5,758 nucleotides of DNA from a virus. Its lineage: Duplodnaviria; Heunggongvirae; Uroviricota; Caudoviricetes. Made by a program: the position numbers. Location: IMG/VR virus record IMGVR_UViG_2778261708_000019; one strand, 5' to 3'. Of this stretch, positions 1-3,000 are shown piece by piece; position 1 is the stretch's first letter; every line of letters starts with the position of its first letter.

Positions 1-3000
1 CATCCTGACTTTCCAGAACCATACGAATCGCCCGCTGACGGACTTCGGGGGAAAAACGAGTATTTTTAGTCATCCTGTTTACCTCTTTCTCAGGGAGTTT
101 AGTCTCCAGGATTTCCGGGGCGGTTCATTCCTTAACTCAAAATGGCAATGATAGCCATATAACTTCTCTCCTCTACGGAGGAGGCCCAGCATTAACTAAT
201 TCAGCTGGAGTACCCTGGACTGCAGCTTATGTTGATACTATTGGCGAAGTCACGGCCGATCTTCGTTCAAATATTGCAGCTGAAGCTCGGGCAAAGATCA
301 TTTACGAACGTCTCATTAATGTTACTGATGATCCTGGAGTAAAAGACACTCTGGCATTTTTAATGACCCGGGAAGCAGCACACATGCTTTCATTTGAAAA
401 AGCATTACATTCAATTCGTAACACCTTTCCACCAGGAAAATTACCACCACTTGAGAAATACAAAAACGTATATTACAACATGTCAGAAGGTGAAGACGTC
501 AGAGGTAGTTGGAACAGTGATGAAAACTTTGACTATGTTTCCGATCCAGTTTCAGCGGTTGACGGTGGGGATGGGAAGGCCTCGATAAATCTTTCGACCA
601 AGCAAGAAGCTATGATAAAAGCTATGGCAACAAGGTTGAAATCCCATGAAGACATCAATCCTGTCACTGGCGCTGAGCTTGCTGAAGGAGAACCACAAAC
701 AAAGATAAATAGTAAAAACTAATTATCTTCTGGTATTTAGCTATCCCTCATAAGTTAATTGCCGCTGAGATATCCTAAGCTCTAGCCTCTGAAAATACAT
801 TTATATTTCGAAGCCCGCGATATTTTAAGCGGGCTTTTATTTTAAACTTCAGGTATTACAGGCCACTCAATATCAGGTGCAGTTGATGTATCAACACGGT
901 TCAGCAACACCCGATACTTTTTCCAGGCTTCCAGCAATGAGGTTTCTTCCTCCGTTGCGATTTCCAGATCTACAGCATCCTGAAGTGGCGCAATATGCTC
1001 ACTGGCTACCTGCATCAGGCTGTTTTTTGTTTCTTCCGCCTCCCGGATCCGGAACAGTTTTTCTGCTTCTGCATCTTTCACCCAGGCTGTGCCGTTCCAC
1101 TTCTGAAACTCCCCTTCCGGCGATAACCAGGTAACATTTTCCGGTAATGAGCCGAGTTCAGAAATAAATAACGCGTCGCCGGAAGCCACGTCATAAACCG
1201 TTTTACCCCGATGATCTTCAACGAGATGCCACGATGACTCATCACTGTTGAAAACAGCCACGAAGCCAGCCGGAATATCTGGCGGTGCAATATAGGTACT
1301 GTTTGCTGGCAGACCTGTATGAGGCGGAATATATGCGTCACCTTCACCAATAAATTCATTAGTTCCGGTCAGCAGATTATAAATTTTTATGGTCCGTGGT
1401 TGTTCACTCATTCTGAATGCCATTATGCAAGCCTCACAATGTAGTTAAATGCGATGTTTTTGACAGTGTTTTCCGCGTTACCCGCAGCGTTAACGGTGAT
1501 GGTGTGTCCATGTGAGCCAATCGCAACAGAGTGCGTATGAGCACCAATACCGACAGTATGTGCGTGAGCACCTGCAGATGCAGCTGTGCCGCTGACACTA
1601 TGAGTGTGCGCTCCTGCAGCACTTGTATTCACACTGGCCGCAGACACTACCTTATGTACTGACCCATTTTGTGACCACTGGCTGACTGCTGATGCGCCTG
1701 TGACACTATGAGTATGGTTTCCGGCACTTGCGGCTGTACCGCTCACACTGTGCGTGTGCGCCCCGGTGTTATTCGTGGATTTAGTGCCGTAATCAAACGA
1801 CGATGTGGTTTTCGTCCCCAAATCCGTACTGGATGCGCTGGCGCTGTGGGTGTGCGATTTAATGCCGTCCTGTTCCTGAGACAATACGGCCCGACCACTG
1901 GCAGGTTTGCCCTTAATCGTCCAGCCACGCATATCAGGGATCACGCCTGACGGATAAGCGGCTGCAAGTTTCGGGTATGCAGATTTGTCAAAAGTCTGCC
2001 CCTGCATCAGGGCATAGCCAGACGGAACGGTATCTGATGGCCACGGGATTGGTGCGCCAGGCGGATAAAACTGCTCTGATGGCGTATAGAGTGAATAAAC
2101 TGTACCGTCCGTTAACCCTTCCGGCTTATTAGCAGAATATGCTGGTGACGTATGAATCGTCACGCTGGCATTACTGGTATAATCCCATTGAATATTTACA
2201 CCAGTCGCATAATTTCCGATTGCAACGTAAATATCGTAAGTATCACCAGATGTATTGACCCAGGCAAAATTTGTAAACCCTGTCGATGTGCGCTGCCATA
2301 AAGCACCAGTAATCCCCTTCGGATTACCATTACCTGCACGCAAAACAAGTTCAGATATACCTGCCTGTTGAGGTGACCCCACGTTAAATCCCGCGCCACC
2401 AATCAACGTAATTGAAACAACAGAACTCGCCTGTGGCATGGTTACCGTTGCTAATTTGAACCAACCAGCACCACCGCTGAATGACATTGTTGTTGAGTTA
2501 AGCGTACCAATATCTTTCGGCGTCAGTGTTATATCCGATGAAAGCGCCTTACCATTCACCTTACGGGCAGAAGGTACCCGACCATTCGCATTATCATTAG
2601 CTGCTTTCACTGCTTTCGGTGTCGCGGCAAGCGTTTCAGATGCGCTGTTGGTTGCACTACTGAGCTGGACAATTCCTTTTTGTGCTGTCGTAGCGTCCTG
2701 AGCAGTATATTTCCCGTTAGCAAGGTCATAGGCTGCCTTTACCGACTTTGGCGTTGCCGCCAGCATTTCAGATGTGCTGTTGGTCGCGTTGCTAAGCTGA
2801 ACTATCCCTTTCTGTGCTGTCGTTGCATCCTGTGCGGTGTATTTCCCGTTAGCCAGCTCATACGCGGCCTTAACGGCTTTTGGCGTTGCCGCCAGTGACT
2901 CGGAAGTGCTGTTAGTCGCACTGCTGAGCTGTACTATCCCCTTTTTCGTCGTGCTCGCATCCTCAAGCGCCACGGCGGATGCAATATCCTCTGCCCGTTT

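What the first reader, a model, noticed from the sequence alone, without database searches (positions are those of the whole stretch)
1495..1860. Clustered His-x-His motifs at the Stf tip suggest a metal-coordinating receptor-binding needle
At least seven H-x-H pairs (HTH, HAH, HGH) recur within ~120 residues, several inside a duplicated [15 protein letters not shown] unit. In T4 gp37 such HxH repeats coordinate metal ions in the trimeric distal tip. The same fold here would place the receptor-binding site at the extreme C-terminus, which fits the need for the Tfa chaperone encoded immediately downstream.
Basis: partly seen in the sequence, partly recalled or inferred. Interest (0 to 1): 0.45.

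Follow-up and report, generated by a model that had tools for sequence, protein, structure and literature searches.

The report
Lambdoid side-fibre tip, T4 gp37-type
The seven His-x-His motifs are real and belong to the well-known, metal-stapled needle found at the end of phage lambda side tail fibres and the T4 long tail fibre, so the feature is ordinary, and its receptor-binding part is the variable loop in the middle of the motifs rather than the very end of the protein.

Summary
Observation confirmed. The 971-aa side tail fibre gene (stf, window 1423-4338, minus strand) has exactly seven HxH motifs in its last 145 residues. They hold 14 of the protein's 18 His, far more than chance gives. 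The last 214 residues align end to end with the crystallised T4 gp37 receptor-binding tip (PDB 2XGF, E=4e-88, 69% identity). All seven HxH fall on gp37's seven HxH motifs; the literature describes seven HxH-coordinated irons there. They are also 78% identical to lambda Stf. A Tfa chaperone gene (93% identical to lambda Tfa, 30% to T4 gp38) follows with a 1-nt overlap. So the "metal-coordinating needle like gp37" reading is supported by direct homology. One point is wrong. In this fold the chain runs up the needle, forms the tip and runs back, so the extreme C-terminus sits in the collar. It is 94% identical to T4 and nearly invariant. The receptor-binding part is the hairpin turn between HxH 3 and 4 (residues 878-904). 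That segment is 11% identical to T4 and hypervariable among homologues. Not tested: trimer geometry and metal content. The lambda Stf / T4 gp37 relationship dates from the 1980s-90s, the structure from 2010, and Pfam PF03335 models the repeat. Already known; low interest.

The parts
1423..4338 (-). stf, side tail fibre gene (971 aa from the ATG; stop codon at 1423-1425)
   Evidence: ORF. Pfam hits: PF08400 N-terminal domain, 3x PF03406, PF07484 collar, PF03335. RefSeq CDS WP_000279120.1 has the same extent.
1858..2067 (-). Collar domain, N-terminal part (Stf 758-827, equivalent to gp37 811-881)
   Evidence: PF07484 Collar, E=6.6e-12. 83% identical to gp37. Domain limits from PMC6957217.
1708..1857 (-). 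Ascending stem strand of the needle (Stf 828-877), carrying HxH 1-3
   Evidence: Aligned to gp37 882-931 at 74% identity. HxH positions.
1627..1707 (-). Tip (head) subdomain (Stf 878-904), the hypervariable hairpin turn and inferred receptor-binding surface
   Evidence: Aligned to gp37 tip 932-959 at only 3/28 identical. Mean column entropy 2.59 bits against 0.10-0.58 elsewhere. 45 distinct inserts of 32-53 aa in 90 close homologues. In T4 this subdomain holds the receptor-contact residues (PMC6957217).
1477..1626 (-). Descending stem strand of the needle (Stf 905-954), carrying HxH 4-7
   Evidence: Aligned to gp37 960-1009 at 70% identity.
1426..1476 (-). Collar domain, C-terminal part (Stf 955-971, ...[16 protein letters not shown])
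   Evidence: 16/17 identical to gp37 1010-1026, and the last 16 residues are identical in lambda Stf. Entropy 0.10 bit.
1846..1854 (-). HxH 1 (H829-T-H831), equivalent to gp37 H883/H885
1750..1758 (-). HxH 2 (H861-T-H863), equivalent to gp37 H915/H917
1708..1716 (-). HxH 3 (H875-T-H877), equivalent to gp37 H929/H931. Both are iron ligands and essential in T4.
   Evidence: PMC6957217
1600..1608 (-). HxH 4 (H911-T-H913), equivalent to gp37 H966/H968
1558..1566 (-). HxH 5 (H925-A-H927), equivalent to gp37 H980/H982
1531..1539 (-). HxH 6 (H934-T-H936), equivalent to gp37 H989/H991
1504..1512 (-). HxH 7 (H943-G-H945), equivalent to gp37 H998/H1000
842..1423 (-). tfa, tail fibre assembly chaperone (193 aa). 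Its ATG overlaps the stf stop codon by 1 nt (TAATG).
   Evidence: PF02413 Caudo_TAP, E=3.4e-45. 93% identical to lambda Tfa; 30% to T4 gp38 (E=2e-19). C-terminal part matches Mu Tfa 5YVQ_B at E=1.3e-9. Junction sequence.

Best explanation
Window 1426-2067 (minus strand) encodes the C-terminal receptor-binding module of a lambdoid prophage side tail fibre (Stf). It is an orthologue-grade relative of the lambda Stf C-terminus and of the T4 gp37 tip (PDB 2XGF).

Shown here: full-length sequence homology; one-to-one alignment of the seven HxH motifs; a collar domain in front; a Tfa/gp38-type chaperone gene behind; and a conserved scaffold surrounding one hypervariable segment.

Inferred from the solved T4 structure and its mutagenesis: three Stf chains, folded with the help of Tfa, form a collar and a six-stranded antiparallel beta needle. 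Each chain runs up the needle (HxH 1-3), makes the distal tip (residues 878-904) and runs back (HxH 4-7), so that the C-terminus ends in the collar. At each of seven levels, the HxH of the three chains supplies six His that coordinate one buried metal ion octahedrally on the three-fold axis. That ion is iron in T4. The ions hold the three chains in register and stiffen the needle; they are structural, not receptor contacts. The exchangeable tip loop decides which surface molecule is bound during reversible adsorption. The receptor is OmpC for lambda Stf (and also LPS for T4), and an LPS-core sugar for Gifsy-1 Stf. It is unknown for this variant.
For: - PDB sequence search: 2xgf_A, E=4e-88, query 1-214 aligned to chain 29-242 with two 1-residue gaps.
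- Three-way alignment: 69% identity to gp37, 78% to lambda orf-314; HxH positions correspond one to one.
- Identity to gp37 by subdomain: collar 83% and 94%, stem 74% and 70%, tip 11%.
- Conservation in 43 homologues: the aligned HxH histidines are 80-100% conserved; tip entropy is 2.59 bits against 0.10-0.58 elsewhere.
- 92 of 115 close homologues have exactly 7 HxH.
- 45 different tip inserts of 32-53 aa sit in the same scaffold.
- Pfam: Collar PF07484 and the 14-aa Phage_fiber repeat PF03335 (25.9 bits, cut-off 20).
- Tfa: PF02413 at 3.4e-45, 93% identical to lambda Tfa, 30% to gp38.
- Context is a lambda-type tail module, H-M-L-K-I-J-lom-stf-tfa.
- Literature: seven irons in gp37, with H929/H931 essential and the receptor residues in tip 932-959 (PMC6957217). 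HxH from three chains gives an octahedral Fe site in gp37, pyocin fibres and P2/phi92 spikes (PMC6116203). The lambda Stf C-terminus is modelled on 2XGF (PMC7291167; PMC12617516).
Against: - Nothing in the sequence argues against it.
- No three-dimensional support could be produced. The AlphaFold2 monomer was poor (mean pLDDT 55.5, pTM 0.20).
- The only significant Foldseek hit, 2xgf_A (E=3.9e-11), had TM 0.21 and rmsd 30.9, so that match reflects sequence, not modelled fold.
- Metal identity and occupancy cannot be read from sequence. T4 gp12 has an HxH site that was crystallised with Zn (PMC6116203).
- Whether this prophage still makes particles is not known.
Confidence: 0.93

Rival explanations
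1. One reading: a gp37-like needle whose receptor-binding site is at the extreme C-terminus of the polypeptide.
For: The module as a whole is at the C-terminal end of Stf, and the chaperone gene follows it.
Against: In gp37, residues 1010-1026 belong to the collar D10, and the tip 932-959 is an insertion within the stem (PMC6957217). Here the last 17 residues are 16/17 identical to T4, and the final 16 are identical in lambda, although these fibres carry different tips. They are the least variable part of the module (0.10 bit). Residues 878-904 are the most variable (2.59 bits).
Confidence: 0.03
2. Same fold, but the HxH sites hold a metal other than iron (for example zinc), or only some of the seven sites are occupied.
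For: T4 gp12 has an HxH site crystallised with Zn, although after refolding in a zinc salt (PMC6116203). Homologues carry 5-9 HxH, so the number of sites is not fixed. Lambda has 8.
Against: All seven motifs align with gp37's seven HxH motifs, where the literature describes seven HxH-coordinated irons, at 70-74% identity in the surrounding stem. Iron is the metal found at HxH sites in gp37, R-pyocin fibres and the P2/phi92 spikes (PMC6116203).
Confidence: 0.12
3. The 'Ferrojan horse' idea: the fibre iron is functional bait that lets the phage dock on siderophore or iron-uptake receptors.
For: The hypothesis has been proposed for HxH-bearing fibres in marine phages (PMC11705849; bioRxiv 10.1101/674382).
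Against: In the gp37-type fold and the pyocin fibres the ions are buried on the trimer axis and are assigned a folding or rigidity role (PMC6116203; PMC6957217). Known receptors of this module are OmpC and LPS core. Specificity varies with the tip loop while the HxH scaffold stays constant.
Confidence: 0.02
4. The HxH clustering is a chance or low-complexity effect of a Gly/Ala/Ser/Thr/His-rich tail with no specific role.
For: The region is compositionally simple and repetitive.
Against: 0 of 100,000 whole-protein shuffles and 10 of 100,000 local shuffles reach 7 HxH. The motifs are positionally conserved across T4, lambda and hundreds of homologues. The two identical 15-aa units differ at 10 of 45 nt, all synonymous, which points to purifying selection.
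Confidence: 0.01

Closest known systems
Bacteriophage T4 gp37 long-tail-fibre receptor-binding tip (PDB 2XGF; collar D10 plus needle D11 with seven Fe)
   Same: Full-length alignment of 214 residues (E=4e-88, 69% identity). The same seven HxH at the same positions and the same 14/14/9/9 spacing. The same collar halves at both ends. A gp38/Tfa-type chaperone gene directly downstream.
   Different: The tip subdomain is unrelated in sequence (3/28 identical) and one residue shorter, so the receptor need not be OmpC or E. coli B LPS. The rest of the fibre is lambdoid rather than the gp37 shaft: PF08400 N-terminus, an Ala/Ser-rich rod and PF03406 repeats. According to the literature T4 acquired this module from a lambda-like phage (PMC3157838).
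Phage lambda (Ur-lambda) side tail fibre Stf (orf-401/orf-314) with Tfa
   Same: Same gene order, J-lom-stf-tfa, with a 1-nt stf/tfa overlap. 78% identity over the shared C-terminal 189 residues. Tfa is 93% identical. The same N-terminal Pfam family.
   Different: Lambda has eight HxH (an extra HQH rung on the descending strand), an extra FDYGTK repeat on the ascending strand, and a longer, unrelated tip loop. Lambda Stf is 774 aa against 971 aa here. The laboratory lambda gene is frameshifted, whereas this one is intact (PMC7291167).
T4 gp12 short tail fibre, and HxH metal sites in R-type pyocin fibres and P2/phi92 spikes
   Same: A collar domain of the same family (PDB short tail fibre 9cuy_c matches the collar only, E=2.3e-7). 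HxH from three chains forms an octahedral metal site (PMC6116203).
   Different: Those proteins have a single HxH site rather than a stack of seven, and no sequence similarity to the needle or tip here.
T2/S16-type distal fibre (gp37 capped by a separate gp38 adhesin), and the Mu/P2-type fibre with Tfa (PDB 5YVQ)
   Same: Both have a tail-fibre gene followed by a small accessory gene. The C-terminal domain of the Tfa here matches Mu Tfa 5YVQ_B (E=1.3e-9).
   Different: The accessory protein here is a Caudo_TAP chaperone, not a gp38 adhesin, and the adhesin function is built into the fibre itself (PMC3157838). The fibre tip shows no sequence match to the Mu fibre chain.

Membership tests
gp37/lambda-Stf-type receptor-binding tip (PDB 2XGF fold: collar - needle - tip) | Sequence homology over the whole tip module to the solved structure | tested here: met
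   phmmer against PDB: 2xgf_A, E=4e-88, query 1-214 aligned to chain 29-242. 151/219 identical to gp37.
gp37/lambda-Stf-type receptor-binding tip (PDB 2XGF fold: collar - needle - tip) | Seven HxH motifs at the positions of the iron-ligand histidines | tested here: met
   Stf 829, 861, 875, 911, 925, 934 and 943 align with gp37 883, 915, 929, 966, 980, 989 and 998. The literature describes seven HxH-coordinated irons in gp37 and names H929/H931 as iron ligands.
gp37/lambda-Stf-type receptor-binding tip (PDB 2XGF fold: collar - needle - tip) | Collar domain split into an N-terminal and a C-terminal part that enclose the needle | tested here: met
   PF07484 at residues 763-810 of the 973-aa form. 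Collar N is 83% and collar C 94% identical to gp37 811-881 and 1010-1026.
gp37/lambda-Stf-type receptor-binding tip (PDB 2XGF fold: collar - needle - tip) | Hypervariable tip subdomain inserted between the third and fourth HxH | tested here: met
   Entropy 2.59 bits against no more than 0.58 elsewhere. 45 distinct inserts in 90 homologues. 11% identity to T4 at that segment.
gp37/lambda-Stf-type receptor-binding tip (PDB 2XGF fold: collar - needle - tip) | Cognate Tfa/gp38-type assembly chaperone encoded immediately downstream | tested here: met
   PF02413, E=3.4e-45. 93% identical to lambda Tfa, 30% (E=2e-19) to T4 gp38. TAATG overlap with the stf stop.
gp37/lambda-Stf-type receptor-binding tip (PDB 2XGF fold: collar - needle - tip) | Homotrimeric six-stranded needle with the His side chains converging on the three-fold axis | not testable with these tools
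   Only single chains can be predicted. The monomer model was poor (pLDDT 55.5, pTM 0.20). Its Foldseek hit to 2xgf_A had TM 0.21. Model coordinates are not returned either.
gp37/lambda-Stf-type receptor-binding tip (PDB 2XGF fold: collar - needle - tip) | Iron bound at the HxH sites | not testable with these tools
   Requires metal analysis of purified protein. Inferred only from the homology to 2XGF.
Pfam PF03335 Phage_fiber (14-residue phage tail fibre repeat) | Whole-protein score above the curated cut-off | tested here: met
   25.9 bits against a cut-off of 20, E=8.1e-6, best stretch 858-871. Also precomputed on most homologues. The 14-residue HxH-to-HxH spacing occurs on both strands.
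T2/S16-type fibre with a separate gp38 adhesin | The downstream gene encodes a gp38-type adhesin rather than a chaperone | tested here: not met
   The downstream protein matches only PF02413 Caudo_TAP and is 93% identical to lambda Tfa.

The most novel reading that the evidence does not exclude
The 27-residue tip loop of this variant ([27 protein letters not shown], Stf 878-904) is unrelated to the T4 tip and different from the lambda tip. It may therefore recognise a surface receptor different from the OmpC or LPS-core targets known for this module. The identical loop occurs in phages 2H10, PhiR29_1/2 and a Salmonella phage, with a 76% relative in a T4-like myovirus. That would make it a portable specificity cassette that moves between siphoviruses and myoviruses on the constant HxH scaffold.
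Probability: 0.4. Interest if true: 0.25.

Novelty: already known. Interest (0 to 1): 0.08.

Why it matters
It adds little as a discovery. The lambda Stf / T4 gp37 tip relationship, the seven-iron needle and the Tfa/gp38 chaperone requirement are established, and this protein is already annotated in hundreds of E. coli O157 genomes. The practical value is in annotation. The analysis fixes the domain map of this Stf (collar 758-827 and 955-971, stem 828-877 and 905-954, tip 878-904). It also shows where specificity lies, and so where a chimeric fibre for engineered lambda-type delivery particles should be cut or swapped.

Tried and rejected
1. AlphaFold2 of the 219-residue C-terminus with a 43-sequence alignment gave a poor model (mean pLDDT 55.5, pTM 0.20), as expected for an obligate intertwined, metal-bound trimer.

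2. A Foldseek search of that model against the PDB returned only 2xgf_A as significant (E=3.9e-11), but with TM 0.21 and rmsd 30.9. It adds nothing beyond the sequence match.

3. Trimer prediction. I prepared three-copy, linker-joined constructs but did not hand them in. Structure prediction states that only sequences of the window or returned homologues may be submitted, and an artificial concatenation is neither.

4. The Bartual et al. 2010 structure paper (PMC2996694 / doi 10.1073/pnas.1011218107) is not held in the library. Domain limits and the iron sites were taken from Islam et al. 2019 (PMC6957217) and Buth et al. 2018 (PMC6116203) instead.

5. A recent DNA duplication as the origin of the repeated 15-aa unit was rejected: 35/45 nt identical, all differences synonymous.

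6. The Gifsy-1 paper and the STEC delivery preprint were checked for a characterised receptor of this tip variant. None was found.
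Full report
**What the window is.** The 5758-base window is the right-hand end of the tail module of a lambdoid prophage of E. coli. Essentially identical sequence occurs in many O157:H7 chromosomes (99.9-100% identity; 539 genomes cover at least 80% of it). All phage genes are on the minus strand:
- the C-terminal end of the tail-tip protein J (5069-5725; PF12421)
- lom (4403-5002; PF06316)
- a long side tail fibre gene, stf (1423-4338)
- a tail fibre assembly gene, tfa (842-1423; PF02413, E=3.4e-45)

In a RefSeq genome the same stretch is annotated as tape measure, M, L, K, I, J, Ail/Lom, "prophage tail fiber N-terminal domain-containing protein" (WP_000279120.1, 971 aa) and "tail fiber assembly protein". 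That is the lambda gene order.

**The observation.** The finding's coordinates (1495-1860) fall in the last 145 codons of stf.
- Translation gives exactly seven HxH motifs, at residues 829, 861, 875, 911, 925, 934 and 943 (971-aa numbering). All lie within 1504-1854.
- They account for 14 of the protein's 18 histidines. The other 826 residues have no HxH.
- None of 100,000 shuffles of the whole protein reached seven (maximum 5). Shuffling only the His-rich final 145 residues reached seven in 10 of 100,000 trials (mean 1.44).
- The 15-residue unit [15 protein letters not shown] does occur twice (window 1720-1764 and 1570-1614), but it carries one HxH per copy, so two of the seven.
- At DNA level the copies are 35/45 identical and all ten differences are synonymous. 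This is a protein-level constraint rather than a recent duplication.

**What it is.**
[quoted passage not shown] E=4e-88, query 1-214 aligned to chain 29-242 with two single-residue gaps.
- Against full gp37 and lambda orf-314 (the C-terminal Stf fragment of laboratory lambda), identity is 69% and 78% respectively.
- The seven HxH align one to one with gp37 H883/885, 915/917, 929/931, 966/968, 980/982, 989/991 and 998/1000.
- Lambda has eight HxH (an extra HQH rung) plus an extra FDYGTK repeat.
- Pfam finds the collar domain (PF07484) immediately in front. It also recognises the HxH repeat itself as the 14-residue "Phage_fiber" repeat PF03335 (25.9 bits, cut-off 20). This fits the 14-residue HxH-to-HxH spacing seen on both sides of the tip (spacings 32, 14, 36, 14, 9, 9).
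- The downstream Tfa is 93% identical to lambda Tfa and 30% identical (E=2e-19) to T4 gp38. Its C-terminal domain matches the solved Mu Tfa (5YVQ_B, E=1.3e-9).
- The tfa ATG overlaps the stf stop by one base (TAATG), as in lambda.

**How it most likely works.** This part is inferred from the solved homologue.
- Islam et al. 2019 (PMC6957217) summarise the 2XGF structure. The collar D10 is made of gp37 811-881 plus 1010-1026. The needle D11 (882-1009) is an insertion in the collar. It divides into a stem (882-931 and 960-1009) and a tip (932-959) that forms the distal pole.
- Seven iron atoms lie along the needle. H929 and H931 are iron ligands and are essential. The residues needed for LPS and OmpC binding lie on the tip.
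- Buth et al. 2018 (PMC6116203) describe the chemistry. HxH from each of three chains gives six histidines around an octahedral iron, as in gp37, R-pyocin fibres and the P2/phi92 spikes. They suggest a role in chain registration during folding and in stiffness.
- Transferred to this Stf, the map is: collar 758-827 and 955-971; ascending stem 828-877 (HxH 1-3); tip 878-904; descending stem 905-954 (HxH 4-7).

The sequence data fit that map closely.
- Identity to T4 is 83% (collar N), 74% (stem up), 11% (tip, 3/28), 70% (stem down) and 94% (collar C).
- In an alignment of 43 homologues the mean column entropy is 0.26, 0.58, 2.59, 0.45 and 0.10 bits for the same five segments. The aligned histidines are 80-100% conserved.
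- Of 115 close homologues with a complete C-terminus, 92 have exactly seven HxH (range 5-9).
- In the 90 that could be parsed, the segment between HxH 3 and HxH 4 comes in 45 different versions of 32-53 residues. These fall into about a dozen unrelated sequence types, all in the same scaffold.

The module is therefore a constant, metal-stapled scaffold that presents an exchangeable loop.

- The reading [quoted passage not shown] is supported by direct homology.
- The inference that the receptor-binding site is at the extreme C-terminus is not supported. In this fold the chain returns, and the last 17 residues belong to the collar. They are the most conserved part of the module, with the final 16 residues identical in this Stf, lambda and T4, even though these fibres carry different tips.
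- The receptor-binding part is the hairpin turn in the middle of the HxH cluster.

**What could not be shown.**
The structure tool predicts single chains.
- The monomer model was poor (pLDDT 55.5, pTM 0.20). Its only significant Foldseek hit, 2xgf_A, had TM 0.21, so that match is driven by sequence.
- Metal identity and occupancy, the receptor of this tip variant, and whether the prophage is still active remain untested.

**Comparison with what is known, and novelty.**
- The similarity of lambda tail-fibre ORFs to T4 gp37/gp38 was noted in 1983. Functional exchange was shown in 1989, and Stf/Tfa were defined in 1992. These works are cited in PMC3157838 and PMC7291167.
- Trojet et al. state that T4's g37 C-terminus and g38 were replaced by sequences originating from lambda.
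- Reviews and the 2025 Ur-lambda structure paper model the Stf C-terminus on 2XGF.
- HxH iron sites in phage fibres are widely discussed.
- The exact tip loop of this window is present in the sequenced phages 2H10, PhiR29_1/2 and Salmonella phage SPF_0923 (100% over 45 residues). A 76% relative is in the T4-like myovirus vB_EcoM_G2285.

The finding is a correct recognition of an already known feature. Interest is low.

**Verdict.** Observation confirmed. Interpretation partly supported: the fold, the metal sites and the chaperone are right, and the location of the receptor site is wrong. Novelty: already known. Interest: 0.08.

Noticed in passing
window 1-127 (and 128-722): The first ~127 bases are the end of an IS3-family element (IS1203/IS629-like; the transposase start is on the minus strand at about 1-70). 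It is inserted into a manganese-catalase gene. Genomes without the insertion match the window only from base 128, and RefSeq annotates the catalase as two pseudogene halves flanking the IS in strain ERL04-3476.
   Followed up: partly
window 1570-1614 and 1720-1764: The two copies of [15 protein letters not shown] are identical in protein but differ at 10 of 45 nucleotides, all synonymous (including an AGT/TCT serine switch). They lie on the ascending and descending strands either side of the tip. This looks like purifying or convergent selection rather than recent duplication or gene conversion.
   Followed up: yes
window 1421-1425: The stf stop and the tfa start overlap by one base (TAATG), the same arrangement as lambda orf-314/orf-194. 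This suggests translational coupling of fibre and chaperone.
   Followed up: partly
window 2934-3941 (-, other frame) and 3092-3841 (+): Long ORFs (335 and 249 aa) lie in other frames and on the other strand inside the Ala/Ser-rich central rod of stf. They are probably by-products of the repetitive GC-rich codon composition. Lambda has a similarly placed annotated antisense ORF (orf206b inside orf-401).
   Followed up: no
window 4336-4344: The mechanical ORF call starts stf at a GTG two codons upstream of the ATG. The Pfam PF08400 match begins at residue 3 and RefSeq starts at the ATG (MAVKISG..., 971 aa).
   Followed up: yes
window 1627-1707; phage records LR595862.1, PV340556.1, PV340557.1, ON032529.1, MK327933.1: The exact tip loop of this Stf is found in the temperate phages 2H10 and PhiR29_1/2 and in a Salmonella phage. 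A 76% relative sits in a T4-like myovirus 'tail collar domain protein'. This suggests tip cassettes move between phage families.
   Followed up: partly
L001 2911-6595 (strain 7784, beyond the window's left end): Next to the tfa end of the prophage lies a cluster: Mn catalase, two ferritin-like proteins, a general stress protein and a SAM methyltransferase. It is followed by a partial second tail-fibre-assembly pseudogene and an ISEc8. The stress-gene cluster may be prophage cargo bracketed by tfa remnants.
   Followed up: no
window 1-5758: The consensus scan found no sigma-70-like promoter sites, against 5.0 +/- 2.3 in shuffles. It found strong terminator-like hairpins just after J (5051-5032, minus strand) and after lom (4376-4355, minus strand). 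So lom is bracketed by terminators, while stf-tfa have no promoter-like site of their own.
   Followed up: no
window ~2590-2960 (Stf residues ~462-585): There are three tandem copies of the about 42-residue PF03406 phage tail fibre repeat ([40 protein letters not shown]). They lie upstream of the tip module and are also visible as DNA repeats.
   Followed up: no
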